Shown piece by piece: positions 1 through 64,000 of a DNA stretch of 64,000 nt. Below the pieces are notes generated by a model. That model did not search any database. It saw only the letters and a list, made by a program, of their open reading frames with translations, and was not told the DNA's origin. The translations under genes and the position numbers were made by a program. Position 1 is the first letter of the stretch. Each line of letters opens with the position of its first letter. The stretch comes from Eledone cirrhosa (lineage: Eukaryota). The DNA is taken from positions 421,476,001 to 421,540,000 of the forward strand of contig OZ024740.1 in the NCBI GenBank assembly GCA_964016885.1, read 5' to 3'.

Positions 1-3000
1 ACTGACAGTACCAGATCTAGAGATGTGTACTACCAACAGTACCAGATCTAGAGATATGTACTACTGAAAGAACTACATCTAGAGATATGTACTACCAGCA
101 ATACCACATTTAGAGATATGTACTACTGACAGTACCACATCTAGAGACATGTAGCAACTACAGTACCACATCTAGAGATATGTACTACCAACAGTACCAC
201 ATCTAGAGATATGTACAACTGACAGTAAAAAATCTAGAGATATGTACTACTGACAGTACCACATCTAGAGATATGTACTACCAACAGTACAACATCTAGA
301 GATATGTACTACCAGCAGTAACACATCTAGAGATATGTACTACCAACAGTATCACATCTAGAGATATGTACTACCAACAGTACCACATTATGAGACATCT
401 ACTAACAGTACCACATCTAGAGATATGTACTACTGACAGTATCACATCTAGAGATATGTACTACTGACAGTACCACATCTAGAGATATGTACTACTGACA
501 GTATCACATCTAGAGATATGTACTACTAACAGTACCACATCTAGAGATATGTACTACCAATTGTACCACATCTAGAGATATGTACTACCAACAGTACCAC
601 ATCTAGAGATATGTACTACAAGCAGTACCACATTTAGAGATATGTACTACCAACAGTACCACATTTAGAGATATGTACTACTGACAGTACCACATCTAGA
701 GACATGTACGAACAACAGTACCACATCTAGAGATATGTACCACTGAAAGTACCACATCTAGAGATATGTACTACCAACAGTACCACATCTAGAGATATGT
801 ACTACCAACAGTACCACATCTAGAGATATGTACTACTGGCAGTACCACATCTCTAGATATATACCAACAACAATCCCACATCTAGACATATGTACTACCA
901 ACTGTACCACATCTACAGATATGTACTACTGAATGTACCACATCTAGAGATATGTACTACCAACAGTACCACATCTAGAGATATGTACTACTGACAGTAC
1001 CACATCTAGAGATATGTACTACTGACAGTATCACATCTAGAGATATGTACTACTGACAGTAACACATCTAGAGATATGTACTACTGACAGTACCACATCT
1101 AGAGATATGTACTACTGACAGTATCACATCTAGAGATATGTACTACTGACAGTACCACATCTAGAGATATGTACTACCAATTGTACCACATCTAGAGATA
1201 TGTACTACCAACAGTACCACATCTAAAGATATGTACTACCAGCAGTACCACATCTAGAGATATGTACTACCAACAGTACCACATTTAGAGATATGTACTA
1301 CTGACAGTACCACATCTAGAGACATGTACGAACAACAGTACCACATCTAGAGATATGTACCACTGAAAGTACCACATCTAGAGATATGTACTACCAACGG
1401 TACCACATCTAGAGATATGTACTACTGACAGTACCACATGTAGAAATATGTACCAACAACAGTACCACATCAAGAGATATGTACTACGAACAGTACCACA
1501 TTTAGAGATATGTACTACTGACAGTACCACATCTAGAGATATGTATTACTGACAGTACCACATCTAGAGATATGTACTACCAACAGTATCTCATCTAGAG
1601 ATATGTACTACTGACAGTACCACATCTAGAGATATGTACTACCAACAGTACCACATTTAGAGATATGTACTACTGACAGTACCACATCTAGAGACATGTA
1701 CGAACAACAGTACCACATCTAGAGATATGTACCACTGAAAGTACCACATCTAGAGATATGTACTACCAACAGTACCACATCTAGAGATATGTACTACCAA
1801 CAGTACCACATCTAGAGATATGTACTACTGGCAGTACCACATCTAGAGATATATACCAACAACAATCCCACATCTAGAGATATGTACTACCAACAGTACC
1901 ACATTTAGAGATATGTACTACTGACAGTACCACATCTAGAGACATGTACAAACAACAGTACCACATCTAGAGATATGTACCACTGAAAGTACCACATCTA
2001 GAGATATGTACTACCAACAGTACCACATCTAGAGATATGTACTACCAACTGTACCACATCTAGAGATATGTACTACTGATTTACCACATCTAGAGATATG
2101 TACTACTGACAGTAACACATCTAGAGATATGTACCAACAACAGTACCACATCAATAGATATGTACTACCAACAGTACCACATTTAGAGATATGTACTACT
2201 GACAGTACCACATCTAGAGACATGTACGAACAACAGTACCACATCTAGAGATATGTACCACTGAAAGTACCACATCTAGAGATATGTACTACCAACGGTA
2301 CCACATCTAGAGATATGTACTACCAACAGTACCACATCTAGAGATATGTACTACTGACAGTACCACATCTAGAGATATGTACTACCAACAGTATCACATC
2401 TAGAGATATGTACTACTGACAGTACCACATCTAGAGATATGTACTACTGACAGTATCACATCTAGAGATATGTACTACTGGCAGTACCACATCTAGAGAT
2501 ATATACCAACAACAAGCCCACATCTAGAGATATGTACTACCAACTGTACCACATCTAGAGATATGTACTACTGATTTACCACATCTAGAGATATGTACTA
2601 CTGACAGTACCACATCTAGAGATATGTACCAACAACAGTACCACATCTAGAAACATGTACCAGCAGTACCGCATCTAGAGATATGTACTACTGAAAGTAC
2701 CACATCTAGAGATATGTACTACCAACAGTACCACATCTACAGATCTGTACTACTGACAGTACCACATCTAGAGATATGTACTAACAATTGTACCACATCT
2801 AGAGATATGTACTACCAACAGTACCACATCTAGAGATATGTACTACCAGCAGTACCACATCTAGAGATATGTACTACCAACGGTACCACATCTAGAGATA
2901 TGTACTACCAACAGTACCACATCTAGAGATATGTACTACTGGCAGTACCACATCTAGAGATATGTACTACTGACAGTACCACATCTAGAGATATGTACTA

Positions 3001-6000
3001 CCAACAGTATCACATCTAGAGATATGTACTACTGACAGTATCACATCTAGAGATATGTACTACTGACAGTACCACATCTAGAGATATGTACTACTGACAG
3101 TATCACATCTAGAGATATGTACTACTGACAGTACCACATCTACAGATATGTACCACTGACAGTACCACATCTAGAGATATGTACTACTGACAAAACCACA
3201 TCTAGATATATGTACTACCAACAGTACCACATCTAGACATATGTACTCCTGACAGTACCACATCTACAGATATGTACTACCAACAGTACCACATCTAGAG
3301 ATATGTACTACTGGCAGTACCACATCTAGAGATATGTACTACTGACAGTACCACATCTAGAGATATGTACTACCAACAGTATCACATCTAGAGATATGTA
3401 CTACTGACAGTATCACATCTAGAGATATGTACTACTGACAGTATCACATCTAGAGATATGTACTACTGACAGTACCACATCTAGAGATATGTACTACTGA
3501 CAGTATCACATCTAGAGATATGTACTACCAACAGTACCACATCTAGAGATATGTACTACTGGCAGTACCACATCTAGAGATATGTACTACTGACAGTACC
3601 ACATCTAGAGATATGTACTACCAACAGTATCACATCTAGAGATATGTACTACTGACAGTATCACATCTAGAGATATGTACTACTGACAGTATCACATCTA
3701 GAGATATGTACTACTGACAGTACCACATCTAGAGATATGTACTACTGACAGTATCACATCTAGAGATATGTACTACTGACAGTACCACATCTACAGATAT
3801 GTACTACTGACAGTACCACATCTAGAGATATGTACTACCAATTGTACCACATCTAGAGATATGTACTACCAACAGTACCACATCTAGAGATATGTACTAC
3901 CAGCAGTACCACATCTAGAGATATGTACTACCAACAGTACCACATTTAGAGATATGTACTACTGACAGTACCACATCTAGAGACATGTACGAACAACAGT
4001 ACCACATCTAGAGATATGTACTACTGACAGTACGACATCTAGAGATATGTACTACTGACAGTACCACATCTAAAGATATGTATTACTGACAGTACCACAT
4101 CTAGAGATATGTACTACCAACAGTACCTCATCTAGAGATATGTACTACCAGCAGTACCACATCTGGAGATATGTACTACCAACGGTACCACATCTAGAGA
4201 TATGTACTACCAACAGTACCACATCTAGAGATATGTACTACTGAAAGTACCACATCTAGAGATATGTACTACCAACAGTACCACATCTAGAGATATGTAC
4301 TACTGGCAGTACCACATCTCGAGATATATACCAACAACAATCCCACATCTAGACATATGTACTACTGACAGTACCACATCTACAGATATGTACTACTGAC
4401 AGTACCACATCTAGAGATATGTACTACCAATTGTACCACATCTAGAGATATGTACTACCAACAGTACCACATCTAGAGATATGTACTACCAGCAGTACCA
4501 CATCTAGAGATATGTACTACCAACAGTACCACATTTAGAGATATGTACTACTGACAGTACCACATCTAGAGACATGTACGAACAACAGTACCACATCTAG
4601 AGATATGTACTACTGACAGTACGACATCTAGAGATATGTACTACTGACAGTACCACATCTAGAGATATGTACTACCAACAGTATCACATCTAGAGATATG
4701 TACTACTGACAATATCACATCTAGAGATATGTACTACTGACAGTACCACATCTAGAGATATGTACTACCAACAGTACCACATCTAGAGATAAGTACTACT
4801 GACAGTACCACATCTAGAGATATGTACTACCAACAGTACCACATCTAGAGATATGTACTACTGACAGTACGACATCTAGAGATATGTACTACTAACAGTA
4901 CCACATCTAGAGATATGTACTACTGACAGTATCACATCTAGAGATATGTACTACTGACAGTACCACATCTAGAGATATGTACTACTGACAGTATCCCATC
5001 TAGAGATATGTACTACTGACAGTACCACATCTACAGATATGTACTACCAATTGTACCACATCTAGAGATATGTACTACCAACAGTACCACATCTAGAGAT
5101 ATGTACTACCAGCAGTACCACATCTAGAGATATGTACTAACAACAGTAACACATTTAGAGATATGTACTACTGACAGTACCACATCTAGAGATATGTACT
5201 ACTGACAGTACCACATCTAGAGATATGTACCAACAACAGTACCACATCAAGAGATATGTACCACCAACAGTACCACATTTAGAGATATGTACTACTGACA
5301 GTACCACATCTAGAGATATGTACCAACAACAGTACCACATCTAGAGATATGTACCACTGAAAGTACCACATCTAGAGATATGTACTACCAACGGTACCAC
5401 ATCTAGAGATATGTACTACCAACAGTACCACATCTAGAGATATGTACTACTGACAGTACCACATCTAGAGATATGTACCAACAACAGTACCACATCAAGA
5501 GATATGTACCACCAACAGTACCACATTTAGAGATATGTACTACTGACAGTACCACATCTAGAGATATGTACCAACAACAGTACCACATCAAGAGATATGT
5601 ACCACCAACAGTACCACATCTAGAGATATGTACTACTGACAGTACCACATCTAGAGATATGTACTACCAACAGTACCACATCTAGAGATATGTACTACCA
5701 GCAGTACCACATCTAGAGATATGTACTACCAACGGTACCACATCTAGAGATATGTACTACCAACAGTGGCACATCTAGAGATATGTACTACTGACAGTAC
5801 CACATCTAGAGATATGTACTACCCACGGTACCACATCTAGAGATATGTACTACCAACAGTACCACATCTAGAGATATGTACTACCAACTGTAACACATCT
5901 AGAGATATGTACTACCAACAGTACCACATCTAGAGATATGTACTACCAGCAGTACCACATCTAGAGATATGTACTACTGAAAGTACACATCTAGAGATAT

Positions 6001-9000
6001 GTACTACCAATAGTACCACATCAAGAGACATGTACCAACAACAGTACCACATCTAGAGATATGTAGTACTGACAAAACCACATCTAGAGATATGTACTAC
6101 TGACGGTACCACATCTAGAGATATGAACTCCTGACAGTACCACATCTAGAGATATGTACTACCAACAGTACCACATTTAGAGATATGTACTACCAACAGT
6201 ACCACATCGAGAGATATGTACTACTGACAGTACCACATCCAGAGATATGTACTACCAACAGTACCACATTTAGAGATATGTACTACTGACAGTACCACAT
6301 CTAGAGACATGTACCAACACCAGTACCACATCTAGATATATGTACTACTGAAAGTACCACATGTAGAGATATGTACTACCAACAGTACCACATCTAGAGA
6401 TATGTATCAACAACAGTACCACATCTAGAGATATGTACTACCAACAGTATCACATCTAGAGATATGTACCACTGACAGTACCACATCTAGAGATATGTAC
6501 TACTGACAAAACCACATCTAGATATATGTACTACCAACAGTACTACATCTAGACATATGTACTCCTGACAGTACCACATCTACAGATATGTACTACCAAC
6601 AGTACCACATCTAGAGATATGTACTACTGGCAGTACCACATCTAGAGATATGTACTACTGACAGTACCACATCTAGAGATATGTACTACCAACAGTATCA
6701 CATCTAGAGATATGTACTACTGACAGTATCACATCTAGAGATATGTACTACTGACAGTATCACATCTAGAGATATGTACTACTGACAGTACCACATCTAG
6801 AGATATGTACTACTGACAGTATCACATCTAGAGATATGTACTACTGACAGTACCACATCTACAGATATGTACTACTGACAGTACCACATCTAGAGATATG
6901 TACTACCAATTGTACCACATCTAGAGATATGTACTACCAACAGTACCACATCTAGAGATATGTACTACCAGCAGTACCACATCTAGAGATATGTACTACC
7001 AACAGTACCACATTTAGAGATATGTACTACTGACAGTACCACATCTAGAGACATGTACGAACAACAGTACCACATCTAGAGATATGTACTACTGACAGTA
7101 CGACATCTAGAGATATGTACTACTGACAGTACCACATCTAGAGATATGTATTACTGACAGTACCACATCTAGAGATATGTACTACCAACAGTACCTCATC
7201 TAGAGATATGTACTACCAGCAGTACCACATCTAGAGATATGTACTACCAACGGTACCACATCTAGAGATATGTACTACCAACAGTACCACATCTAGAGAT
7301 ATGTACTACTGAAAGTACCACATCTAGAGATATGTACTACCAACAGTACCACATCTAGAGATATGTACTACTGGCAGTACCACATCTCGAGATATATACC
7401 AACAACAATCCCACATCTAGACATATGTACTACCAACTATACCACATCTAGAGATATGTACTACTGAATGTACCACATCTAGAGATATGTACTACCAACA
7501 GTACCACATCTAGAGATATGTACTACTGACAGTACCACATCTAGAAATATGTACCAACAACAGTACCACATCAAGAGATATGTACTACCAACAGTACCAC
7601 ATTTAGAGATATGTACTACTGACAGTACCACATCTAGAGATATGTATTACTGACAGTACCACATCTAGAGATATGTACTACCAACAGTACCTCATCTAGA
7701 GATATGTACTACTGACAGTACCACATCTAGAGATATGTACTACCAACAGTACCACATTTAGAGATATGTACTACTGACAGTACCACATCTAGAGACATGT
7801 ACGAACAACAGTACCACATCTAGAGATATGTACCACTGAAAGTACCACATCTAGAGATATGTACTACCAACGGTACCACATCTAGAGATATGTACTACCA
7901 ACAGTACCACATCTAGAGATATGTACTACTGGCAGTACCACATCTAGAGATATATACCAACAACAATCCCACATCTAGAGATATGTACTACCAACTGTAC
8001 CACATTTAGAGATATGTACTACTGATTTAGCACATCTAGAGATATGTACTACTGACAGTACCACATCTAGAGATATGTACCAACAACAGTACCACATCAA
8101 TAGATATGTACTACCAACTGTACCACATTTAGAGATATGTACTACTGACAGTACCACATCTAGAGATATGTACTACTGACAGTACCACATCTAGAGATAT
8201 GTACTACCAACAGTACCTCATCTAGAGATATGTACTACCAGCAGTACCACATCTAGAGATATGTACTACCAACGGTACAACGTCTAGAGATATGTACTAC
8301 CAACAGTACCACATCTAGAGATATGTACTACCAGCAGTACCACATCTAGAGATATGTACCAGACAGTACCACATCTAGAGATATGTACTACCGACGGTAC
8401 CACATCTAGAGATATGTACTACTGACAATACCACATCTAGAGATATGTACTACTGACAGTACCACATCTAGAGATATGTACTACCAACAGTATCACATCT
8501 AGAGATATGTACTACCAACAGTACCACATTATGAGACATCTACCAACAGTACCACATCTAGACATAAGTACTACTGACAGTACCACATCTAGAGATATGT
8601 ACTACCAACAGTATCACATCTAGAGATATGTACCACTGACAGTACCACATCTAGAGATATGTACTACTGACAAAACCACATCTAGATATATGTACTACCA
8701 ACAGTACTACATCTAGACATATGTACTCCTGACAGTACCACATCTACAGATATGTACTACCAACAGTACCACATCTAGAGATATGTACTACTGGCAGTAC
8801 CACATCTAGAGATATGTACTACTGACAGTACCACATCTAGAGATATGTACTACCAACAGTATCACATCTAGAGATATGTACTACTGACAGTATCACATCT
8901 AGAGATATGTACTACTGACAGTATCACATCTAGAGATATGTACTACTGACAGTACCACATCTAGAGATATGTACTACTGACAGTATCACATCTAGAGATA

Positions 9001-12000
9001 TGTACTACTGACAGTACCACATCTACAGATATGTACTACTGACAGTACCACATCTAGAGATATGTACTACCAATTGTACCACATCTAGAGATATGTACTA
9101 CCAACAGTACCACATCTAGAGATATGTACTACCAGCAGTACCACATCTAGAGATATGTACTACCAACAGTACCACATTTAGAGATATGTACTACCAGCAG
9201 TACCACATCTAGAGATATGTACTACCAACGGTACCACATCTAGAGATATGTACTACCAACAGTGGCACATCTAGAGATATGTACTACTGACAGTACCACA
9301 TCTAGAGATATGTACTACCCACGGTACCACATCTAGAGATACGTACTACTGACAGAACCACATCTAGAGATATGTACTACCAACAGAACCACATCTAGAG
9401 ATATGTACTACCAACAGTACCACATCTAGAGATATGTACTACCAACTGTAACACATTTAGAGATATGTACTACCAACAGTACCACATCTAGAGATATGTA
9501 CTACCAGCAGTACCACATCTAGAGATATGTACTACTGAAAGTACACATCTAGAGATATGTACTACCAATAGTACCACATCAAGAGACATGTACCAACAAC
9601 AGTACCACATCTAGAGATATGTAGTACTGACAAAACCACATCTAGAGATATGTACTACTGACGGTACCACATCTAGAGATATGAACTCCTGACAGTACCA
9701 CATCTAGAGATATGTACTACCAACAGTAACACATTTAGAGATATGTACTACCAACAGTACCACATCGAGAGATATGTACTACTGACAGTACCACATCCAG
9801 AGATATGTACTACCAACAGTACCACATTTAGAGATATGTACTACTGACAGTACCACATCTAGAGACATGTACCAACACCAGTACCACATCTAGATATATG
9901 TACTACTGAAAGTACCACATGTAGAGATATGTACTACCAACAGTACCACATCTAGAGATATGTATCAACAACAGTACCACATCTAGAGATATGTACTACC
10001 AACAGTATCACATCTAGAGATATGTACCACTGACAGTACCACATCTAGAGATATGTACTACTGACAAAACCACATCTAGATATATGTACTACCAACAGTA
10101 CTACATCTAGACATATGTACTCCTGACAGTACCACATCTACAGATATGTACTACCAACAGTACCACATCTAGAGATATGTACTACTGGCAGTACCACATC
10201 TAGAGATATGTACTACTGACAGTACCACATCTAGAGATATGTACTACCAACAGTATCACATCTAGAGATATGTACTACTGACAGTATCACATCTAGAGAT
10301 ATATACTACTGACAGTATCACATCTAGAGATATGTACTACTGACAGTACCACATCTAGAGATATGTACTACTGACAGTATCACATGTAGAGATATGTACT
10401 ACTGACAGTACCACATCTACAGATATGTACTACTGACAGTACCACATCTAGAGATATGTACTACCAATTGTACCACATCTAGAGATATGTACTACCAACA
10501 GTACCACATCTAGAGATATGTACTACCAGCAGTACCACATCTAGAGATATGTACTACCAACAGTACCACATTTAGAGATATGTACTACTGACAGTACCAC
10601 ATCTAGAGACATGTACGAACAACAGTACCACATCTAGAGATATGTACTACTGACAGTACGACATCTAGAGATATGTACTACTGACAGTACCACATCTAGA
10701 GATATGTATTACTGACAGTACCACATCTAGAGATATGTACTACCAACAGTACCTCATCTAGAGATATGTACTACCAGCAGTACCACATCTAGAGATATGT
10801 ACTACCAACGGTACCACATCTAGAGATATGTACTACCAACAGTACCACATCTAGAGATATGTACTACTGAAAGTACCACATCTAGAGATATGTACTACCA
10901 ACAGTACCACATCTAGAGATATGTACTACTGGCAGTACCACATCTCGAGATATATACCAACAACAATCCCACATCTAGACATATGTACTACCAACTATAC
11001 CACATCTAGAGATATGTACTACTGAATGTACCACATCTAGAGATATGTACTACCAACAGTACCACATCTAGAGATATGTACTACTGACAGTACCACATCT
11101 AGAAATATGTACCAACAACAGTACCACATCAAGAGATATGTACTACCAACAGTACCACATTTAGAGATATGTACTACTGACAGTACCACATCTAGAGATA
11201 TGTATTACTGACAGTACCACATCTAGAGATATGTACTACCAACAGTACCTCATCTAGAGATATGTACTACTGACAGTACCACATCTAGAGATATGTACTA
11301 CCAACAGTACCACATTTAGAGATATGTACTACTGACAGTACCACATCTAGAGACATGTACGAACAACAGTACCACATCTAGAGATATGTACCACTGAAAG
11401 TACCACATCTAGAGATATGTACTACCAACGGTACCACATCTAGAGATATGTACTACCAACAGTACCACATCTAGAGATATGTACTACTGGCAGTACCACA
11501 TCTAGAGATATATACCAACAACAATCCCACATCTAGAGATATGTACTACCAACTGTACCACATTTAGAGATATGTACTACTGATTTAGCACATCTAGAGA
11601 TATGTACTACTGACAGTACCACATCTAGAGATATGTACCAACAACAGTACCACATCAATAGATATGTACTACCAACAGTACCACATTTAGAGATATGTAC
11701 TACTGACAGTACCACATCTAGAGATATGTACTACTGACAGTACCACATCTAGAGATATGTACTACCAACAGTACCTCATCTAGAGATATTTACTACCAGC
11801 AGTACCACATCTAGAGATATGTACTACCAACGGTACAACGTCTAGAGATATGTACTACCAACAGTACCACATCTAGAGATATGTACTACCAGCAGTACCA
11901 CATCTAGAGATATGTACCAGACAGTACCACATCTAGAGATATGTACTACCGACGGTACCACATCTAGAGATATGTACTACTGACAATACCACATCTAGAG

Positions 12001-28570: not shown

Positions 28571-28715
28571 CATCTTATAAGATATAATCAATCAATCAAA
28601 TCAATCAACAAGATCCCAGACCTCCTCAAATTTGACCAATAGAGAATCATTTATTGATCTTTACATTGTTGATACTATCTACTGGTTGCAACTTCTGACA
28701 GAAGGACCAACTTGA

Positions 28716-28820: not shown

Positions 28821-28885
28821 TCACATAAGATATAACAGAATAGAAGTACAATTTGTTGCTGTTTATTGTTTTATTATTAGATCCT

Positions 28886-29107: not shown

Positions 29108-29109
29108 AG

Positions 29110-29235: not shown

Positions 29236-29247
29236 GATGCTGTTTAA

Positions 29248-36841: not shown

Positions 36842-36842
<1 letters not shown>

Positions 36843-36922: not shown

Positions 36923-37021
36923 TTTGATGATTGGTGATTGTAGATTAATAAATTTCCTTTTAGGGTCCCAATTGCCAGAAGCTGATTCTTTTTTGACCAT
37001 GATAAAAATGTTAATGGGTCT
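36923..37021 (-). CDS. WDR19: WDR19/IFT144 internal coding exon (1st in window, 99 bp): [32 protein letters not shown](K)
   Basis: Acceptor atatttcag|A and donor AA|gtaatg. The phase-2 end joins the next exon as AA|A. Parallels WDR19 [33 protein letters not shown] (recalled). Not in the supplied ORF track. Confidence 0.95.
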
Positions 37022-37065
37022 CTGAAATATAAAATAATCAGGTGAAAAGATAGATTAGAATTGGT

Positions 37066-37330
37066 GGAGGTGTGTGGCCTAGTGGTAAGGGTATTGAACT
37101 TAACATAATGTTGTGGGTTTGATCCCTGGAATGGGTTGTGTGTTCTGTTCTTGAGAAAAACACCTCATTTCATGTTACTCCAGTATACTCAGCTGAAAAA
37201 GTATACCAGCAGCAGCTGGGAGTTTAACCCTGCAATGGACTAGCATCTTGTTCAGGGGGAGTCTTGTACTCTCAGTAGCTTCATGCCATGAAAAGCACCA
37301 GCCTGATAGCCTCTAGGTTCAAGACAGACT
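37066..37330 (+). mobile_element. tRNA-derived SINE (CORE-like), degenerate
   Basis: GGAGGTGTGTGGCCTAGTGGTAAGG (A box), GGGTTTGATCCC (B box) and TGTTCTTGAGAAAAACAC (CORE-like). Related to 28716-28820. Confidence 0.7.
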
Positions 37331-37506
37331 TTAGATTTTATACTAATTACGTCATGGATGAACCATTTTAGACATTTGAAGAACACAAAAGCATTTATAC
37401 CAAAATAAATATTACATTTTTTTTTTTTTAGATCTCTGAAATGATTCTTCCATTTATAATTGTTTCAGGTTCAATATACTGCTAGCAGCGAAAGTGGATG
37501 TTAAAA

Positions 37507-37533
37507 TGATGATGATGATGATGATGATGATGT
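37507..37533. repeat. (GAT)n microsatellite, possibly a retroposon 3' tail
   Basis: GCTAGCAGCGAAAGTGGATGTTAAAATGATGATGATG... Confidence 0.8.
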
Positions 37534-37602
37534 CTCGACTTATTTCACTTACTAAAGTTGTATAAGAAGCCCAGAATTATAACTGATTCCTCATATTTGA
37601 TA

Positions 37603-52600: not shown

Positions 52601-55600
52601 AGTCATGCTAGGGACAAGACAGTCTTACTGGTGATCTACACTGACAGGGTTGAGAGGACCCCTCAGTCATGTCAGGGACAAGACAGTCTTACTGGTGATC
52701 TACACTGACAGGGTTGAGAGGATCCCTCAGTCATGCTAGGGACAAGACAGTCTTACTGGTGATCTACACTGACAGGGTTGAGAGGATCCCTCAGTCATGT
52801 CAAGGACTAGACAGTCTCCCTGGTGATCTACACTGACAGGGTTGAGAGGATCCCTCAGTCATGCTAGGGACAAGACAGTCTTACTGGTGATCTACACTGA
52901 CAGGGTTGAGAGGACCCCTCAGTCATGTCAGGGACAAGACAGTCTTACTGGTGATCTACACTGACAGGGTTGAGAGGATCCCTCAGTCATGCTAGGGACA
53001 AGACAGTCTTACTGGTGATCTACACTGACAGGGTTGAGAGGACCCCTCAGTCATGTCAAGGACTAGACAGTCTCCCTGGTGATCTACACTGACAGGGTTG
53101 AGAGGATCCCTCAGTCATGCTAGGGACAAGACAGTCTTACTGGTGATCTACACTGACAGGGTTGAGAGGATCCCTCAGTCATGTCAGGGACAAGACAGTC
53201 TTACTGGTGATCTACACTGACAGGGTTGAGAGGACCCCTCAGTCATGCCAGGGACAAGACAGTCTTACTGGTGATCTACACTGACAGGGTTGAGAGGATC
53301 CCTCAGTCATGCTAGGGACAAGACAGTCTTACTGGTGATCTACACTGACAGGGTTGAGAGGACCCCTCAGTCATGTCAGGGACAAGACAGTCTTACTGGT
53401 GATCTACACTGACAGGGTTGAGAGGACCCCTCAGTCATGCCAGCGACAAGACAGTCTCCCTGGTGATCTACACTGACAGGGTTGAGAGGATCCCTCAGTC
53501 ATGCCAGCGACAAGACAGTCTCCCTGGTGATCTACACTGACAGGGTTGAGAGGATCCCTCAGTCATGTCAGGGACAAGACAGTCTTACTGGTGATCTACA
53601 CTGACAGGGTTGAGAGGATCCCTCAGTCATGTCAGGGACAAGACAGCCTCCCTGGTGATCTACACTGACAGGGTTGAGAGGATCCCTCAGTCATGTCAGG
53701 GACAAGACAGTCTCCCTGGTGATCTACACTGACAGGGTTGAGAGGATCCCTCAGTCATGTCAGGGACAAGACAGTCTCCCTGGTGATCTACACTGACAGG
53801 GTTGAGAGGATCCCTCAGTCATGTCAGGGACAAGACAGTCTCCCTGGTGATCTACACTGACAGGGTTGAGAGGATCCCTCAGTCATGTCAGGGACAAGAC
53901 AGTCTCCCTGGTGATCTACACTGACAGGGTTGAGAGGATCCCTCAGTCATGCCAGGGACAAGACAGTCTTACTGGTGATCTACACTGACAGGGTTGAGAG
54001 GACCCCTCAGTCATGTCAGGGACAAGACAGTCTTACTGGTGATCTACACTGACAGGGTTGAGAGGACCCCTCAGTCATGTCAGGGACAAGACAGCCTCCC
54101 TGGTGATCTACACTGACAGGGTTGAGAGGATCCCTCAGGCATGCCAGGGACAAGACAGTCTTACTGGTGATCTACACTGACAGGGTTGAGAGGACCCCTC
54201 AGTCATGTCAGGGACAAGACAGTCTTACTGGTGATCTACACTGACAGGGTTGAGAGGATCCCTCAGTCATGCCAGGGACAAGACAGCCTCCCTGGTGATC
54301 TACAATGACAGGGTTGAGAGGACCCCTCAGTCATGTCAGGGACAAGACAGTCTTACTGGTGATCTACACTGACAGGGTTGAGAGGATCCCTCAGTCATGT
54401 CAGGGACAAGACAGTCTTACTGGTGATCTACACTGACAGGGTTGAGAGGATCCCTCAGTCATGCCAGGGACAAGACAGCCTCCCTGGTGATCTACAATGA
54501 CAGGGTTGAGAGGACCCCTCAGTCATGTCAAGGACAAGACAGTCTCCCTGGTGATCTACACTGACAGGGTTGAGAGGATCCCTCAGTCATGTCAAGGACT
54601 AGACAGTCTCCCTGGTGATCTACACTGACAGGGTTGAGAGGACCCCTCAGTCATGTCAGGGACAAGACAGTCTTACTGGTGATCTACACTGACAGGGTTG
54701 AGAGGATCCCTCAGTCATGTCAGGGACAAGACAGTCTTACTGGTGATCTACACTGACAGGGTTGAGAGGACCCCCTCAATCATGCCAGGGACAAGACAGT
54801 CTTACTAGTGATCTACACTGACAGGGTTGAGAGGACCCCTCAGGCATGTCAGGGACAAGACAGTCTTACTGGTGATCTACAATGACAGGGTTGAGAGGAC
54901 CCCCTCAATCATGCCAGGGACAAGACAGTCTTACTAGTGATCTACACTGACAGGGTTGAGAGGACCCCTCAGGCATGTCAGGGACAAGACAGTCTTACTG
55001 GTGATCTACAATGACAGGGTTGAGAGGACCCCCTCAATCATGCCAGGGACAAGACAGTCTTACTGGTGATCTACACTGACAGGGTTGAGAGGATCCCTCA
55101 GGCATGCCAGGGACAAGACAGCCTCCCTGGTGATCTACACTGACAGGGTTGAGAGGATCCCTCAGTCATGCCAGGGACAAGACAGTCTCACTGGTGATCT
55201 ACACTGACAGGGTTGAGAGGATCCCTCAGTCATGCCAGGGACAAGACAGTCTTACTGGTGATCTACACTGACAGGGTTGAGAGGACCCCTCAGGCATGCC
55301 AGGGACAAAACAGCCTCCCTGGTGATCTACACTGACAGGGTTGAGAGGATCCCTCAGTCATATCAGGGACAAGACAGTCTTACTGGTGATATACACTGAC
55401 AGGGTTGAGAGGACCCCTCAGTCATGTCAGGGACAAGACAGTCTTACTGGTGATCTACACTGACAGGGTTGAGAGGATCCCTCAGTCATGTCAGGGACAA
55501 GACAGTCTTACTGGTGATCTACACTGACAGGGTTGAGAGGACCCCTCAGTCATGTCAGGGACAAGACAGTCTCCCTGGTGATCTACACTGACAGGGTTGA

Positions 55601-58600
55601 GAGGATCCCTCAGTCATGTCAGGGACAAGACAGTCTCCCTGGTGATCTACACTGACAGGGTTGAGAGGATCCCTCAGTCATGTCAGGGACAAGACAGTCT
55701 TACTGGTGATCTACACTGACAGGGTTGAGAGGATCCCTCAGTCATGCCAGGGACAAGACAGTCTTACTGGTGATCTACACTGACAGGGTTGAGAGGATCC
55801 CTCAGTCATGTCAGGGACAAGACAGTCTTACTGGTGATCTACACTGACAGGGTTGAGAGGATCCCTCAGTCATGTCAGGGACAAGACAGTCTTACTGGTG
55901 ATCTACACTGACAGGGTTGAGAGGATCCCTCAGTCATGTCAGGGACAAGACAGTCTTACTGGTGATCTACACTGACAGGGTTGAGAGGATCCCTCAGTCA
56001 TGTCAGGGACAAGACAGTCTCCCTGGTGATCTACACTGACAGGGTTGAGAGGATCCCTCAGTCATGTCAGGGACAAGACAGTCTCCCTGGTGATCTACAC
56101 TGACAGGGTTGAGAGGATCCCTCAGTCATGTCAGGGACAAGACAGTCTTACTGGTGATCTACACTGACAGGGTTGAGAGGATCCCTCAGTCATGCCAGGG
56201 ACAAGACAGTCTTACTGGTGATCTACACTGACAGGGTTGAGAGGACCCCTCAGTCATGTCAGGGACAAGACAGTCTCCCTGGTGATCTACACTGACAGGG
56301 TTGAGAGGATGCCTCAGTCATGTCAGGGACAAGACAGTCTCCCTGGTGATCTACACTGACAGTTTTGAGAGGATCCCTCAGTCATGTCAGGGACAAGACA
56401 GTCTTACTGGTGATCTACACTGACAGGGTTGAGAGGATCCCTCAGTCATGTCAGGGACAAGACAGTCTCACTGGTGATCTACACTGACAGGGTTGAGAGC
56501 ATCCCTCAGTCATGTCAGGGACAAGACAGTCTCCCTGGTGATCTACACTGACAGGGTTGAGAGGATCCCTCAGTCATGCCAGGGACAAGACAGTCTCACT
56601 GGTGATCTACACTGACAGGGTTGAGAGGATCCCTCAGTCATGTCAGGGACAAGACAGTCTCCCTGATGATCTACACTGACAGGGTTGAGAGGATCCCTCA
56701 TTCATGCCAGGGACAAGACAGTCTCCCTGGTGATCTACACTGACAGGGTTGAGAGGATCCCTCAGTCATGTCAGGGACAAGACAGTCTCCCTGGTGATCT
56801 ACACTGACAGGGTTGAGAGGATCCCTCAGTCATGCCAGGGACAAGACAGTCTTACTGGTGATCTACACTGACAGGGTTGAGAGGATCCCTCAGGCATGCC
56901 AGGGACAAGACAGCCTCCCTGGTGATCTACACTGACAGGGTTGAGAGGATCCCTCAGTCATGTCAGGGACAAGACAGTCTTACTGGTGATCTACACTGAC
57001 AGGGTTGAGAGATCCCTCAGTCATGCCATGGAGAAGACAGTCTTACTGGTGATCTACACTGACAGGGTTGAGAGGATCCCTCAGTCATGTCAGGGGACAA
57101 GACAGTCTCACTGGTGATCTACACTGACAGGGTTGAGAGGATCCCTCAGTCATGTCAGGGACAAGACAGTCTTACTGGTGATCTACACTGACAGGGTTGA
57201 GAGGATCCCTCAGTCATGCCAGGGACAAGACAGTCTCCCTGGTGATCTACACTGACAGGGTTGAGAGGATCCCTCAGTCATGTCAGGGGACAAGACAGTC
57301 TCACTGGTGATCTACACTGACAGGGCTGAGAGGATCCCTCAGTCATGTCAGGGACAAGACAGTCTCACTGGTGATCTACACTGACAGGGTTGAGAGGATC
57401 CCTCAGTCATGCCAGGGACAAGACAGCCTCCCTGGTGATCTACACTGACAGGGTTGAGAGGACCCCTCAGTCATGTCAGGGACAAGACAGTCTTACTGGT
57501 GATCTACACTGACAGGGTTGAGAGGATCCCTCAGTCATGACAGTGACAAGACAGCCTCCCTGGTGATCTACAATGACAGGGTTGAGAGGACCCCTCAGTC
57601 ATGTCAGGGACAAGACAGTCTTACTGGTGATCTACACTGACAGGGTTGAGAGGACCCCTCAGTCATGTCAGGGACAAGACAGTCTTACTGGTGATCTACA
57701 CTGACAGGGTTGAGAGGATCCCTCAGTCATGTCAAGGACAAGACAGTCTCCCTGGTGATCTACACTGACAGGGTTGAGAGGATCCCTCAGTCATGTCAGG
57801 GACAAGACAGTCTCACTGGTGATCTACACTGACAGGGTTGAGAGGACCCCTCAGTCATGTCAGGGACAAGACAGTCTTACTGGTGATCTACACTGACAGG
57901 GTTGAGAGGATCCCTCAGTCATGCCAGGGACAAGACAGCCTCCCTGGTGATCTACAATGACAGGGTTGAGAGGACCCCTCAGTCATGTCAGGGACAAGAC
58001 AGTCTTACTGGTGATCTACACTGACAGGGTTGAGAGGATCCCTCAGTCATGTCAGGGACAAGACAGTCTTACTGGTGATCTACACTGACAGGGTTGAGAG
58101 GATCCCTCAGTCATGCCAGGGACAAGACAGCCTCCCTGGTGATCTACACTGACAGGGTTGAGAGGACCCCTCAGTCATGTCAGGGACAAGACAGTCTTAC
58201 TGGTGATCTACACTGACAGGGTTGAGAGGATCCCTCAGTCATGTCAGGGACAAGACAGTCTCACTGGTGATCTACACTGACAGGGTTGAGAGGATCCCTC
58301 AGTCATGTCAGGGACAAGACAGTCTTACTGGTGATCTACACTGACAGGGTTGAGAGGATCCCTCAGTCATGTCAGGGACAAGACAGTCTTACTGGTGATC
58401 TACACTGACAGGGTTGAGAGGATCCCTCAGTCATGTCAGGGACAAGACAGTCTTACTGGTGATCTACACTGACAGGGTTGAGAGGATCCCTCAGTCATGT
58501 CAGGGACAAGACAGTCTTACTGGTGATCTACACTGACAGGGTTGAGAGGATCCCTCAGTCATGTCAGGGACAAGACAGTCTTACTGGTGATCTACACTGA

Positions 58601-61600
58601 CAGGGTTGAGAGGACCCCTCAGTCATGTCAGGGACAAGACAGTCTTACTGGTGATCTACACTGACAGGGTTGAGAGGATCCCTCAGTCATGTCAGGGACA
58701 AGACAGTCTTACTGGTGATCTACACTGACAGGGTTGAGAGGATCCCTCAGTCATGTCAGGGACAAGACAGTCTTACTGGTGATCTACACTGACAGGGTTG
58801 AGAGGACCCCTCAGTCATGTCAGGGACAAGACAGTCTTACTGGTGATCTACACTGACAGGGTTGAGAGGATCCCTCAGTCATGTCAGGGACAAGACAGTC
58901 TTACTGGTGATCTATACTGACAGGGTTGAGAGGACCCCTCAGTCATGTCAGGGACAAGACAGTCTCCCTGGTGATCTACACTGACAGGGTTGAGAGGATC
59001 CCTCAGTCATGTCAGGGACAAGACAGTCTCCCTGGTGATCTACACTGACAGGGTTGAGAGGATCCCTCAGTCATGCTAGGGACAAGACAGTCTTACTGGT
59101 GATCTACACTGACAGGGTTGAGAGGACCCCTCAGTCATGTCAGGGACAAGACAGTCTTACTGGTGATCTACACTGACAGGGTTGAGAGGATCCCTCAGTC
59201 ATGCTAGGGACAAGACAGTCTTACTGGTGATCTACACTGACAGGGTTGAGAGGATCCCTCAGTCATGTCAAGGACTAGACAGTCTCCCTGGTGATCTACA
59301 CTGACAGGGTTGAGAGGATCCCTCAGTCATGCTAGGGACAAGACAGTCTTACTGGTGATCTACACTGACAGGGTTGAGAGGACCCCTCAGTCATGTCAGG
59401 GACAAGACAGTCTTACTGGTGATCTACACTGACAGGGTTGAGAGGATCCCTCAGTCATGCTAGGGACAAGACAGTCTTACTGGTGATCTACACTGACAGG
59501 GTTGAGAGGACCCCTCAGTCATGTCAAGGACTAGACAGTCTCCCTGGTGATCTACACTGACAGGGTTGAGAGGATCCCTCAGTCATGCTAGGGACAAGAC
59601 AGTCTTACTGGTGATCTACACTGACAGGGTTGAGAGGATCCCTCAGTCATGTCAGGGACAAGACAGTCTTACTGGTGATCTACACTGACAGGGTTGAGAG
59701 GATCCCTCAGTCATGTCAGGGACAAGACAGTCTTACTGGTGATCTACACTGACAGGGTTGAGAGGACCCCTCAGTCATGTCAGGGACAAGACAGTCTTAC
59801 TGGTGATCTACACTGACAGGGTTGAGAGGATCCCTCAGTCATGTCAGGGACAAGACAGTCTTACTGGTGATCTACACTGACAGGGTTGAGAGGATCCCTC
59901 AGTCATGTCAGGGACAAGACAGTCTTACTGGTGATCTACACTGACAGGGTTGAGAGGACCCCTCAGTCATGTCAGGGACAAGACAGTCTTACTGGTGATC
60001 TACACTGACAGGGTTGAGAGGATCCCTCAGTCATGTCAGGGACAAGACAGTCTTACTGGTGATCTATACTGACAGGGTTGAGAGGACCCCTCAGTCATGT
60101 CAGGGACAAGACAGTCTCCCTGGTGATCTACACTGACAGGGTTGAGAGGATCCCTCAGTCATGTCAGGGACAAGACAGTCTCCCTGGTGATCTACACTGA
60201 CAGGGTTGAGAGGATCCCTCAGTCATGCCAGGGACAAGACAGTCTTACTGGTGATCTACACTGACAGGGTTGAGAGGACCCCTCAGTCATGTCAGGGACA
60301 AGACAGTCTTACTGGTGATCTACACTGACAGGGTTGAGAGGATCCCTCAGTCATGCTAGGGACAAGACAGTCTTACTGGTGATCTACACTGACAGGGTTG
60401 AGAGGATCCCTCAGTCATGTCAAGGACTAGACAGTCTCCCTGGTGATCTACACTGACAGGGTTGAGAGGATCCCTCAGTCATGCTAGGGACAAGACAGTC
60501 TTACTGGTGATCTACACTGACAGGGTTGAGAGGACCCCTCAGTCATGTCAGGGACAAGACAGTCTTACTGGTGATCTACACTGACAGGGTTGAGAGGATC
60601 CCTCAGTCATGCTAGGGACAAGACAGTCTTACTGGTGATCTACACTGACAGGGTTGAGAGGATCCCTCAGTCATGTCAAGGACTAGACAGTCTCCCTGGT
60701 GATCTACACTGACAGGGTTGAGAGGATCCCTCAGTCATGCTAGGGACAAGACAGTCTTACTGGTGATCTACACTGACAGGGTTGAGAGGACCCCTCAGTC
60801 ATGTCAGGGACAAGACAGTCTTACTGGTGATCTACACTGACAGGGTTGAGAGGATCCCTCAGTCATGCTAGGGACAAGACAGTCTTACTGGTGATCTACA
60901 CTGACAGGGTTGAGAGGACCCCTCAGTCATGTCAAGGACTAGACAGTCTCCCTGGTGATCTACACTGACAGGGTTGAGAGGATCCCTCAGTCATGCTAGG
61001 GACAAGACAGTCTTACTGGTGATCTACACTGACAGGGTTGAGAGGATCCCTCAGTCATGTCAGGGACAAGACAGTCTTACTGGTGATCTACACTGACAGG
61101 GTTGAGAGGACCCCTCAGTCATGCCAGGGACAAGACAGTCTTACTGGTGATCTACACTGACAGGGTTGAGAGGATCCCTCAGTCATGCTAGGGACAAGAC
61201 AGTCTTACTGGTGATCTACACTGACAGGGTTGAGAGGACCCCTCAGTCATGTCAGGGACAAGACAGTCTTACTGGTGATCTACACTGACAGGGTTGAGAG
61301 GACCCCTCAGTCATGCCAGCGACAAGACAGTCTCCCTGGTGATCTACACTGACAGGGTTGAGAGGATCCCTCAGTCATGCCAGCGACAAGACAGTCTCCC
61401 TGGTGATCTACACTGACAGGGTTGAGAGGATCCCTCAGTCATGTCAGGGACAAGACAGTCTTACTGGTGATCTACACTGACAGGGTTGAGAGGATCCCTC
61501 AGTCATGTCAGGGACAAGACAGCCTCCCTGGTGATCTACACTGACAGGGTTGAGAGGATCCCTCAGTCATGTCAGGGACAAGACAGTCTCCCTGGTGATC

Positions 61601-64000
61601 TACACTGACAGGGTTGAGAGGATCCCTCAGTCATGTCAGGGACAAGACAGTCTCCCTGGTGATCTACACTGACAGGGTTGAGAGGATCCCTCAGTCATGT
61701 CAGGGACAAGACAGTCTCCCTGGTGATCTACACTGACAGGGTTGAGAGGATCCCTCAGTCATGTCAGGGACAAGACAGTCTCCCTGGTGATCTACACTGA
61801 CAGGGTTGAGAGGATCCCTCAGTCATGCCAGGGACAAGACAGTCTTACTGGTGATCTACACTGACAGGGTTGAGAGGACCCCTCAGTCATGTCAGGGACA
61901 AGACAGTCTTACTGGTGATCTACACTGACAGGGTTGAGAGGACCCCTCAGTCATGTCAGGGACAAGACAGCCTCCCTGGTGATCTACACTGACAGGGTTG
62001 AGAGGATCCCTCAGGCATGCCAGGGACAAGACAGTCTTACTGGTGATCTACACTGACAGGGTTGAGAGGACCCCTCAGTCATGTCAGGGACAAGACAGTC
62101 TTACTGGTGATCTACACTGACAGGGTTGAGAGGATCCCTCAGTCATGCCAGGGACAAGACAGCCTCCCTGGTGATCTACAATGACAGGGTTGAGAGGACC
62201 CCTCAGTCATGTCAGGGACAAGACAGTCTTACTGGTGATCTACACTGACAGGGTTGAGAGGATCCCTCAGTCATGTCAGGGACAAGACAGTCTTACTGGT
62301 GATCTACACTGACAGGGTTGAGAGGATCCCTCAGTCATGCCAGGGACAAGACAGCCTCCCTGGTGATCTACAATGACAGGGTTGAGAGGACCCCTCAGTC
62401 ATGTCAAGGACAAGACAGTCTCCCTGGTGATCTACACTGACAGGGTTGAGAGGATCCCTCAGTCATGTCAAGGACTAGACAGTCTCCCTGGTGATCTACA
62501 CTGACAGGGTTGAGAGGACCCCTCAGTCATGTCAGGGACAAGACAGTCTTACTGGTGATCTACACTGACAGGGTTGAGAGGATCCCTCAGTCATGTCAGG
62601 GACAAGACAGTCTTACTGGTGATCTACACTGACAGGGTTGAGAGGACCCCCTCAATCATGCCAGGGACAAGACAGTCTTACTAGTGATCTACACTGACAG
62701 GGTTGAGAGGACCCCTCAGGCATGTCAGGGACAAGACAGTCTTACTGGTGATCTACAATGACAGGGTTGAGAGGACCCCCTCAATCATGCCAGGGACAAG
62801 ACAGTCTTACTAGTGATCTACACTGACAGGGTTGAGAGGACCCCTCAGGCATGTCAGGGACAAGACAGTCTTACTGGTGATCTACAATGACAGGGTTGAG
62901 AGGACCCCCTCAATCATGCCAGGGACAAGACAGTCTTACTGGTGATCTACACTGACAGGGTTGAGAGGATCCCTCAGGCATGCCAGGGACAAGACAGCCT
63001 CCCTGGTGATCTACACTGACAGGGTTGAGAGGATCCCTCAGTCATGCCAGGGACAAGACAGTCTCACTGGTGATCTACACTGACAGGGTTGAGAGGATCC
63101 CTCAGTCATGCCAGGGACAAGACAGTCTTACTGGTGATCTACACTGACAGGGTTGAGAGGACCCCTCAGGCATGCCAGGGACAAAACAGCCTCCCTGGTG
63201 ATCTACACTGACAGGGTTGAGAGGATCCCTCAGTCATATCAGGGACAAGACAGTCTTACTGGTGATATACACTGACAGGGTTGAGAGGACCCCTCAGTCA
63301 TGTCAGGGACAAGACAGTCTTACTGGTGATCTACACTGACAGGGTTGAGAGGATCCCTCAGTCATGTCAGGGACAAGACAGTCTTACTGGTGATCTACAC
63401 TGACAGGGTTGAGAGGACCCCTCAGTCATGTCAGGGACAAGACAGTCTCCCTGGTGATCTACACTGACAGGGTTGAGAGGATCCCTCAGTCATGTCAGGG
63501 ACAAGACAGTCTCCCTGGTGATCTACACTGACAGGGTTGAGAGGATCCCTCAGTCATGTCAGGGACAAGACAGTCTTACTGGTGATCTACACTGACAGGG
63601 TTGAGAGGATCCCTCAGTCATGCCAGGGACAAGACAGTCTTACTGGTGATCTACACTGACAGGGTTGAGAGGATCCCTCAGTCATGTCAGGGACAAGACA
63701 GTCTTACTGGTGATCTACACTGACAGGGTTGAGAGGATCCCTCAGTCATGTCAGGGACAAGACAGTCTTACTGGTGATCTACACTGACAGGGTTGAGAGG
63801 ATCCCTCAGTCATGTCAGGGACAAGACAGTCTTACTGGTGATCTACACTGACAGGGTTGAGAGGATCCCTCAGTCATGTCAGGGACAAGACAGTCTCCCT
63901 GGTGATCTACACTGACAGGGTTGAGAGGATCCCTCAGTCATGTCAGGGACAAGACAGTCTCCCTGGTGATCTACACTGACAGGGTTGAGAGGATCCCTCA
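37603..64000. repeat. Satellite array B, 64-bp monomer (GACAGGGTTGAGAGGA[T/C]CCCTCAGTCATG[T/C]CAGGGACAAGACAG[T/C]CT[CC/TA/CA]CTGGTGATCTACACT), about 412 copies, continuing off the right edge
   Basis: Direct 64-bp periodicity, highly homogeneous. BamHI site in the T variant. Confidence 0.99.

What the first reader, a model, noticed from the sequence alone, without database searches (positions are those of the whole stretch)
1..64000. Four exons of the ciliary gene WDR19 form an island between two different giant satellite arrays that appear to be intronic
Seen: four minus-strand exons (99+214+113+82 = 508 nt) splice in frame within 30219-37021. I found no preceding exon between 37021 and array B and no following exon between 30219 and array A. 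Known: WDR19/IFT144 is a conserved IFT-A core subunit of more than 1300 aa, so more exons must exist on both sides. Inference: the flanking introns are more than 27 kb and more than 30 kb long and consist almost entirely of satellite, so Pol II must transcribe through over 55 kb of tandem repeat. This resembles satellite-driven intron gigantism in Drosophila Y-loop axonemal genes, here in a cilia gene of a probable mollusc.
Basis: partly seen in the sequence, partly recalled or inferred. Interest (0 to 1): 0.75.

Follow-up and report, generated by a model that had tools for sequence, protein, structure and literature searches.

The report
Octopus cilia gene swollen by repeats
In an octopus-group genome the intact cilia gene WDR19 is spread over 302,000 bases because several of its introns, including the two beside this exon island, are filled with tandem repeats; its non-ciliary neighbour and much DNA near chromosome ends are built the same way, so this is likely a by-product of local repeat growth rather than a cilia-specific device.

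Summary
Observation confirmed. The four exons are exons 5-8 of a single-copy, intact 36-exon octopod WDR19 (302 kb, no gaps). The flanking introns are 37,280 and 35,885 bases, 96% and 92% tandem repeat. A third intron holds 125 kb, and 80% of intron DNA is long arrays. A contig from another sample ends at exon 5's borders, as a spliced mRNA would.

The Y-loop/cilia reading is not supported. The next gene, EZH2, has a 236-kb array-filled intron. The sampled dynein domains are compact. Long arrays cover 45% of 40 samples within 40 Mb of chromosome ends, against 5.5% of 32 interior samples. The three arrays probed occur nowhere else in the assembly. Seeds include a dispersed repeat and the genes' own splice junctions.

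Closest kinds: avian 'sequence stuttering', frog subtelomeric minisatellites, amphioxus 'mirages'. Here the arrays are larger and the gene is AT-rich. Four searches found no cephalopod report. The scan noted this pattern before, in other genes of this genome and in other WDR19 introns. Novelty: new variant of a known kind. Interest 0.5.

The parts
1..28548 (.). Array A: 31-bp minisatellite in WDR19 intron 8; whole array 33,028 bases, about 1,068 units, running 4.5 kb beyond the window start
   Evidence: 332 of 332 exact genome-wide probe hits lie in this array
1..30218 (-). Window part of WDR19 intron 8 (35,885 bases in all, 92% array); it ends at exon 9, outside the window at C1:421470333-421470242
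30219..30300 (-). WDR19 exon 8 (82 nt)
31704..31944 (.). Small array (about 5 units of 48 bp) in intron 7, from the same dispersed repeat as the 48-mer and 66-mer arrays of introns 10 and 33; a likely example of the seed stage
32125..32237 (-). WDR19 exon 7 (113 nt)
33163..33376 (-). WDR19 exon 6 (214 nt)
36923..37021 (-). WDR19 exon 5 (99 nt); covered border to border by a 1,023-nt contig of run X4
37022..64000 (-). Window part of WDR19 intron 4 (37,280 bases in all, 96% array); it begins at exon 4, outside the window at C1:421550427-421550302
37064..37310 (.). Copy of a high-copy dispersed repeat (SINE-like; label from recall, not from a call)
   Evidence: summed depth far above the flank in 4 of 4 runs
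37603..64000 (.). Array B: 64-bp minisatellite in WDR19 intron 4; whole array 35,652 bases, about 557 units, running 9.3 kb beyond the window end; its unit resembles part of a dispersed repeat still attached at the far edge
   Evidence: 460 of 460 exact genome-wide probe hits lie in this array

Best explanation
The island is exons 5-8 of an intact, single-copy WDR19 gene whose introns hold unrelated tandem arrays, which likely grew in place from short local sequences because the gene lies in a repeat-prone domain near a chromosome end. Shown: the gene model, the intron sizes, the privacy of three arrays, the enrichment of such arrays within about 40 Mb of the ends of the four largest chromosomes, and nested block duplications inside the arrays. 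Inferred steps: (1) a short local stretch (unique intron DNA, part of a dispersed repeat, or an exon-intron junction) is duplicated head to tail; (2) unequal exchange in a presumably recombination-rich distal domain duplicates blocks of many units, so the array grows to 10-200 kb; (3) selection removes only changes that harm exons, so each array stays between two exons; (4) RNA polymerase II reads through the arrays and the spliceosome picks the true sites, probably by exon definition, ignoring the decoy copies. No function of the arrays is needed.
For: All 36 exons are in order on one strand of C1. Exons 2-36 give 1,341 codons without a stop, 88% identical to P0001; exon 1 is predicted from an ATG codon followed by a donor. 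There is no N in 454 kb. Long arrays make up 235,343 of 295,800 intron bases. Probes: 460 of 460, 332 of 332 and 1,987 of 1,987 exact hits lie in the home array; 8 of 12 arrays have no BLAST hit in 80 sampled 10-kb loci or in the array-masked region. Position: 15 of 40 distal samples against 1 of 32 interior samples are at least 80% array (Fisher p 4e-4; means 45% and 5.5%), and the leading units printed differ from sample to sample. The non-ciliary neighbour EZH2 has a 236,128-base intron and another holding a 20-kb array. Local seeds: intron 10 begins with 33 extra copies of the last 32 nt of exon 10 plus its donor (score 104 against a null maximum of 26). The EZH2 46-mer carries that gene's own acceptor plus five exon bases, 3,389 copies of the 17-nt core. 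The 48-mer and 66-mer each hit 19 of 80 sampled loci, and the 48-mer forms a separate array at C1:5 Mb. Block duplication: exact repeats of 6,487 bases in array B and 6,406 in intron 16; an 18-kb-period duplication in EZH2 includes two insertions copied at 100% identity. Splicing: a 1,023-nt contig of run X4 covers 36923-37025 with one difference, the pattern expected if exon 4 precedes exon 5.
Against: The 40-Mb cut was set after seeing C1. In the held-out samples the contrast is weaker: 6 of 20 against 1 of 20, Fisher p 0.09, Mann-Whitney p 0.007. Distal genes need not be inflated: cullin loci near contig ends (C9:52 Mb, C6:100 Mb, C2:386 Mb) are compact, and one interior sample (C4:270 Mb) is all array. 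Recombination rate, length polymorphism between individuals and the orthologous introns of other octopods were not testable, so unequal exchange and recent growth are inferred. The kind of run X4 is not on record and the contig's letters beyond exon 5 were not printed; the exon 8/9 joint is inferred only from its length (774 nt downstream against 409 nt of exons 6-8). Arrays A, i16, i28 and i18 have no identified seed. Neutrality was not tested.
Confidence: 0.8

Rival explanations
1. The arrays belong to a Y-loop-like expression programme for ciliary or sperm-tail genes, using giant satellite introns to time or gate expression.
For: WDR19 is an IFT-A ciliary gene (role recalled). 5 of its 35 introns exceed 10 kb and 3 exceed 30 kb, against 1 of 50 and 0 of 50 gaps at 7 cullin loci. 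An earlier unchecked note reports a similar intron in the cilia gene AK7.
Against: EZH2 next door is inflated as much. 1 of 83 gaps at 20 dynein N2 loci exceeds 10 kb and none exceeds 30 kb (this domain is only about a tenth of each dynein, by recall). Neighbouring DNA at C1:416-425 Mb is similarly array-rich. The arrays are complex, 10-125 kb, and three are shown private; kl-3 and kl-5 hold megabases of simple satellite (PMC6508621, abstract).
Confidence: 0.06
2. The arrays exist but their lengths are partly assembly artefacts (stacked haplotypes or falsely duplicated blocks).
For: Exact internal duplications of 6.4-6.5 kb in arrays B and i16 and about 9 kb in EZH2 could be false duplications. 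No long reads were available to lay, and no contig was shown to bridge the unique flank into array B.
Against: There are no gaps. The arrays are rich in variants (92 distinct units among 552 in B, 231 among 1,026 in A), and the longest exact repeats are 6.5 and 1.3 kb, shorter than typical accurate long reads (recalled). Array borders grade into related local sequence. Summed contig depth over array B units in run X1 is several hundred times the flank's (about 750-fold); the tool warns that this is no copy number, so it is only a weak check.
Confidence: 0.1
3. The arrays help splicing: units with AG-GT or splice-site look-alikes act as recursive stepping stones through the giant introns.
For: The intron-16 array carries 4,329 donor-like sites scoring at or above the lower quartile of the gene's true donors, 3,443 of one AG-GT form. 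The EZH2 array carries thousands of copies of the true acceptor followed by GT.
Against: 4 of 10 WDR19 arrays have no such site and array A has only 10 in 33 kb, so giant introns here do not need them. Use of any intron-10 decoy donor runs into a stop seven codons into the intron. Amphioxus mirages carry such sites without disturbing splicing (PMC3087553, passages).
Confidence: 0.07
4. The arrays are ordinary heterochromatic satellite families (centromeric or shared between chromosomes) that were inserted into the gene.
For: The 48-mer family occurs as an array at a second locus (C1:5 Mb, 93% identical).
Against: Three probes hit only their home array in 3.0 Gb. Only 2 of 78 array pairs share any 14-mer. 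Two arrays begin in the host gene's own exon border.
Confidence: 0.03

Closest known systems
Avian 'sequence stuttering' on dot chromosomes (Hron et al. 2026, PMC12954441; read: abstract, outline, section 7 and Discussion whole)
   Same: [quoted passage not shown] Some arrays copy an exon edge with its splice site (there a median of 36 bp and 1-44 copies; here 32 nt and 33 extra copies in WDR19 intron 10).
   Different: There: small GC-rich bird chromosomes devoid of interspersed repeats, exon-stutter spans 112-23,555 bp, length polymorphism shown. Here: the distal arm of a 443-Mb chromosome, AT-rich coding sequence (GC 38%, GC3 33%), arrays up to 125 kb (204 kb in EZH2), dispersed repeats present and serving as seeds, polymorphism untested.
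Extended subtelomeres of Xenopus tropicalis (Bredeson et al. 2024, author name recalled; PMC10794172; read: 12 passages)
   Same: Tandem arrays are enriched in the terminal ~30 Mb of chromosomes; some are amplified fragments of SINEs or LINEs (a 52-bp SINE piece); unequal crossing over is proposed.
   Different: Recombination was mapped there and is not available here. The word 'intron' does not occur in that paper's main text. Here most units tested are private to one locus and reach 100-200 kb inside genes.
Amphioxus 'mirages' (Adh3, globins; PMC3087553; read: 12 passages)
   Same: Minisatellite-like tandem copies of exon-intron boundaries with cryptic splice signals that do not disturb splicing.
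   Different: There 3-6 units in BflGb6; here 33 extra copies in WDR19 intron 10 and over 3,000 in EZH2.
Drosophila Y-loop intron gigantism, kl-3 and kl-5 (PMC6508621, abstract and outline; PMC11207136, 12 passages)
   Same: An axoneme-related gene whose span is mostly tandem repeat that is likely transcribed.
   Different: There: megabases of simple satellite, over 99% of the locus, Y-linked, about 90 h of spermatocyte transcription, dedicated RNA-binding proteins. Here: 302 kb, 80% of intron DNA, complex units, and a non-ciliary neighbour built alike.
WDR19/IFT144 (PF23389; PDB 8fgw_C, 8bbf_A)
   Same: Full-length orthologue, 88% identical to the Octopus-labelled P0001 over 1,339 aligned residues.
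   Different: Nothing unusual in the protein; only the introns.

Membership tests
WDR19/IFT144 | WDR19 first beta-propeller (PF23389) over the cut-off | tested here: met
   4 of 4 window exons, 38.9-99.4 bits against a cut-off of 27
WDR19/IFT144 | Full-length intact frame of about 1,340 aa, colinear with orthologues | tested here: met
   1,341 codons in exons 2-36 without a stop; 88%, 79% and 71% identical to P0001, P0002, P0003
WDR19/IFT144 | Single functional copy (not an orphan duplicate) | tested here: met
   33 of 34 matches to P0001 lie at this locus; the other is a decayed processed fragment on C3
Drosophila Y-loop intron gigantism | Megabase introns, over 99% of the locus simple satellite | tested here: not met
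   Largest intron 125,076 bases; units of 24-71 bp; 80% of intron bases
Drosophila Y-loop intron gigantism | Restricted to a few sperm or axoneme genes | tested here: not met
   EZH2 has a 236,128-base array intron; dynein N2 loci are compact
Drosophila Y-loop intron gigantism | Y-linked heterochromatin, spermatocyte-specific slow transcription, dedicated RNA-binding proteins | not testable with these tools
   No sex-linkage, tissue or nascent-RNA data; no holder on record as RNA
Avian sequence stuttering | Locally expanded motifs confined to single introns, exons intact | tested here: met
   privacy shown for 3 of 3 arrays probed; two other arrays derive from a dispersed repeat
Avian sequence stuttering | Occasional copies of exon edges with the splice site | tested here: met
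   1 of 10 WDR19 arrays (intron 10); also the EZH2 46-mer
Avian sequence stuttering | Extensive intron length variation between individuals | not testable with these tools
   Only assembled contigs and reduced-representation raw reads were listed
Avian sequence stuttering | GC-rich genes on dot microchromosomes without interspersed repeats | tested here: not met
   Coding GC 38%, GC3 33%; 443-Mb chromosome; dispersed repeats abundant. Works like it; not filed as a member.
Frog-type subtelomeric minisatellite domain | [quoted passage not shown] | tested here: met
   15 of 40 against 1 of 32 samples at least 80% array; held-out 6 of 20 against 1 of 20. Contig ends are taken as chromosome ends; telomeres were not looked for.
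Frog-type subtelomeric minisatellite domain | Arrays amplified from fragments of dispersed elements | tested here: met
   48-mer and 66-mer each hit 19 of 80 sampled loci; array B's unit resembles its attached flank. The element's class was not determined.
Frog-type subtelomeric minisatellite domain | High recombination rate correlated with array density | not testable with these tools
   No genetic map
Amphioxus mirages | Tandem copies of an exon-intron boundary with cryptic splice signals | tested here: met
   WDR19 intron 10 and EZH2; not the two arrays inside the window
Amphioxus mirages | Normal splicing despite the copies | tested here: inconclusive
   The X4 contig is long enough to pass exon 10 into exon 11 (774 nt against 742), but those letters were not printed

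The most novel reading that the evidence does not exclude
Octopod chromosomes end in domains of about 40 Mb in which nearly half the DNA is giant, mostly locus-private minisatellite grown inside ordinary genes, an AT-rich and much larger form of avian stuttering. In them, essential genes such as WDR19 and EZH2 are spliced correctly across thousands of copies of their own splice sites by using those copies as recursive steps, so that arrays with AG-GT units are favoured to become the longest.
Probability: 0.1. Interest if true: 0.82.

Novelty: new variant of a known kind. Interest (0 to 1): 0.5.

Why it matters
If the lengths hold, conserved single-copy genes in this octopod are transcribed through 100-200 kb private arrays, some made of their own splice sites. 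That gives a natural test of how the spliceosome picks one true site among thousands of near-identical decoys. It also separates the two mechanisms proposed for avian stuttering: the gene here is AT-rich, which argues against a need for GC-rich or G-quadruplex stress and favours position-dependent unequal exchange, as proposed for frog subtelomeres. In practice it warns that short-read assemblies and annotation tools with intron-length limits will break such genes. It does not point to a cilia-specific programme.

Tried and rejected
Orphan duplicate or pseudogene island: rejected; all other exons are found in order and the frame is intact. Missing exons inside the island: none.

Cilia or dynein specificity: rejected. 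Shared satellite family: rejected for three arrays.

Origin of the 125-kb intron-16 array from the exon-16 donor: it looked similar by eye, but its best score against any exon edge was within the null (18.5 against a null mean of 19.9). Origin of array A from exon 4: 84 BLAST hits, the six printed at 81-83% over 36 nt, best 39.2 bits, score 24.5 against a null maximum of 24 in 60 resamplings. It is a distal hit, below the 42.1-bit threshold used in PMC12954441, and one of 10 arrays tested, so it is left as probable chance. The 35-mer of intron 23 hit 26 of 80 loci but is AT-rich low-complexity sequence, so it was not counted as a dispersed-repeat seed.

Cover of array B's first units in runs X5 and X8 (other organisms) is not taken as an orthologous array, because the unit resembles a dispersed repeat. 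No RNA holder was listed; this is no evidence on expression. Reads were laid only on 36860-37750, so the exon 8/9 joint and array A's border have no read check.

Literature: searches returned no paper on intronic satellite or minisatellite arrays in cephalopods (listings only). PMC9068888 has no occurrence of 'satellite' or 'telomer' in its main text (passages). Searches were for comparators. No supplements were read; repeat tables in supplements of cephalopod genome papers could bear on the novelty claim.
Full report
1. The observation. The window is a 31-bp array (5-28548), a 9-kb island and a 64-bp array (37603-64000). Four minus-strand exons (37021-36923, 33376-33163, 32237-32125, 30300-30219) have AG/GT borders and splice into one open frame of 508 nt. 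All four match the WDR19 first propeller PF23389 over the cut-off at consecutive positions, and the longest matches human WDR19 at E 4e-22. The window is C1:421476001-421540000 of a 3.0-Gb assembly; C1 is 443 Mb. The nearest proteins are labelled Octopus bimaculoides (94% over this exon) and Argonauta hians (86%), so the animal is an octopod.

2. The whole gene. A search with the Octopus-labelled protein P0001 gave 34 matches, 33 of them in order on the minus strand of C1. I fetched the surrounding 454 kb, which has no N, and built the model. Exons 2-36 give 1,341 codons without a stop, 88% identical to P0001. All 34 introns between them end in AG; 33 begin with GT and one with GC. A predicted 6-nt exon 1 lies 2,478 bases further up, for a span of 302 kb. 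The window's exons are 5-8. Intron 4 is 37,280 bases (array B 35,652) and intron 8 is 35,885 (array A 33,028). Other arrays: intron 10 (48-mer, 16.6 kb, and 49-mer, 1.7 kb), intron 16 (24-mer, 124,632 of 125,076 bases), intron 23 (35-mer, 3.8 kb), intron 28 (39-mer, 12.5 kb), intron 33 (66-mer, 5.4 kb). Long arrays are 235,343 of 295,800 intron bases. The median intron is 1,986 bases. The 34th match, on C3, is an 82%-identical decayed fragment with exons 6 and 7 fused, that is, a processed copy.

3. Is it spliced? None of the 10 listed holders of the island is on record as RNA. On 36860-37750, run X4 (same organism code as the best holder, another sample, kind not on record) has a 1,023-nt contig that covers 36923-37025 with one difference and nothing of the intron below. 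The four-base overhang with one mismatch is what the end of exon 4 would give against the end of intron 4. The 774 nt beyond exon 5 exceed exons 6-8 (409 nt), so a colinear mRNA would also cross intron 8. The outer letters were not printed, so both joints are inferred. In run X1 the same exon is covered together with its intron flank, as genomic DNA would be.

4. What the arrays are. Exact probes hit only the home array in the whole assembly: 460 of 460 for B, 332 of 332 for A, 1,987 of 1,987 for intron 16. Of 78 pairs among 13 local arrays, 2 share any 14-mer. Against 80 sampled 10-kb loci plus the array-masked region, 8 of 12 arrays have no hit. The 48-mer and 66-mer each hit 19 of 80 loci and so come from a dispersed repeat; the 48-mer also forms a separate array at C1:5 Mb and a five-unit seed at window 31704. 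Array B's unit matches its far flank over 22 nt at 86% and over 12 nt exactly, and that flank is a dispersed repeat, so B likely grew from an element that is still attached. Intron 10 starts with 33 extra copies of the last 32 nt of exon 10 plus its donor; this is the only clear case among 10 arrays screened (score 104, null maximum 26). I looked for it after reading PMC12954441. Inside the arrays, variant units recur in blocks; the longest exact repeats are 6,487 bases in B, 1,290 in A and 6,406 in intron 16.

5. Is it about cilia? No sign of it. The next gene upstream is EZH2. One of its introns is 236,128 bases, mostly a 46-mer whose unit contains the gene's own acceptor and five exon bases, with 3,389 copies of the 17-nt core; another intron holds a 20-kb 28-mer array. 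At 20 dynein heavy-chain N2 loci, 1 of 83 gaps between exon hits exceeds 10 kb and none 30 kb; at 7 cullin loci, 1 of 50 and none (one domain per gene, hit lists incomplete). I sampled 80 stretches of 10 kb at round coordinates. On C1-C4, long non-simple arrays cover 45% of 40 samples within 40 Mb of an end (15 of 40 at least 80% covered) and 5.5% of 32 interior samples (1 of 32; Fisher p 4e-4). Without the densely sampled right arm of C1 the distal figure is 7 of 23 (40%). Eight samples on smaller chromosomes average 22.5%. The cut was chosen after seeing C1; the held-out searches give 6 of 20 against 1 of 20 (Fisher p 0.09, Mann-Whitney p 0.007). Against the reading: distal cullin loci are compact and one interior sample is all array, so position raises the odds but does not decide.

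6. How it most likely works. Shown: anatomy, privacy of three arrays, local seeds for some, block duplications, distal enrichment. Inferred: a short local duplication seeds an array; unequal exchange in a presumably recombination-rich distal domain multiplies blocks; exons bound the growth; polymerase II reads through; the true splice sites are chosen by exon definition. Use of an intron-10 decoy donor would hit a stop seven codons into the intron. At a recalled 1-3 kb per minute the gene would take a few hours to transcribe, far from the 90 hours of the fly Y-loops. Confidence 0.8. Rivals: mis-sized assembly 0.1, recursive stepping stones 0.07, Y-loop-like programme 0.06, imported satellite families 0.03.

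7. Comparison with what is known. It works like avian sequence stuttering (PMC12954441; section 7 and Discussion read): intron-confined local arrays and exon-edge copies are met, length polymorphism is untested, and the GC-rich dot-chromosome setting is not met (GC3 33%). It is therefore not filed as a member. The distal enrichment and element-derived units parallel frog subtelomeres (PMC10794172, passages). The junction copies parallel amphioxus mirages (PMC3087553, passages). The Y-loop criteria of size and gene restriction are not met (PMC6508621, abstract; PMC11207136, passages). Searches found no cephalopod report, and PMC9068888 does not mention satellites; supplements were not read. The scan's own notes, mostly unreviewed, report the same pattern in other genes of this genome and in other introns of this gene. 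They gave me the avian and amphioxus papers; the regional reading was mine before the first look-up.

8. Verdict. New variant of a known kind, in a new animal group, at larger scale and in AT-rich genes. Interest 0.5.

Noticed in passing
G000:C1:421613195-421849322 (EZH2 intron; L049-L053, L134-L152): A 236,128-base intron of EZH2 filled by a 46-mer whose unit is the gene's own acceptor plus five exon bases: 1,263 copies of the exact 22-nt site and 3,389 of the 17-nt core; the array runs up to the true acceptor.
   Followed up: partly
G000:C1:421817375-421844514: Inside that EZH2 array, two insertions (1,455 and 4,636 bases, the longer LINE-like with a 1,027-codon frame) occur twice at 100% identity with an 18,027-base period: a very recent block duplication or a false duplication in the assembly.
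   Followed up: partly
G000:C1:421466449-421468179 (WDR19 intron 10): Exon stuttering: 33 extra copies of the end of exon 10 and its donor; read-through meets a stop seven codons into the intron.
   Followed up: yes
G000:C1:421315803-421440434 (WDR19 intron 16): A 124.6-kb 24-mer array starting 27 bases after the donor, with 4,329 donor-like sites on the transcribed strand.
   Followed up: partly
L044:5327-5571 (G000:C3, near 277.46 Mb): A decayed processed fragment of WDR19 with exons 6 and 7 fused, 82% identical; it implies past germ-line expression.
   Followed up: yes
window 52128-58614 and from 60004 onward: An exact 6,487-base repeat with a 7,876-base period inside array B; the first place to check with long reads.
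   Followed up: no
array A against exon 4 (C1:421550427-421550302, nt 51-86): Array A's unit is 81-83% alike over 36 nt to the middle of exon 4, four exons upstream; borderline against the null, unexplained.
   Followed up: partly
G000:C1:421315213 (WDR19 exon 17 donor): One GC-AG intron among the 34 modelled.
   Followed up: no
L045:795-3308 and L047:7783-9186: Downstream of WDR19, an LTR-retrotransposon-type frame (reverse transcriptase, RNase H, integrase) and a LINE-type frame with a PHD finger.
   Followed up: no
G000:C19:6705821-6710174 and 6806589-6811056: Two dynein heavy-chain N2 loci with matching exon pattern and scores, in opposite orientation, 100 kb apart: a recent inverted duplication or an assembly duplicate.
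   Followed up: no
L076, L103, L118: Short tandem arrays with 512-516-base units in 3 of 80 samples on C1, C3 and C2; not compared with each other.
   Followed up: no
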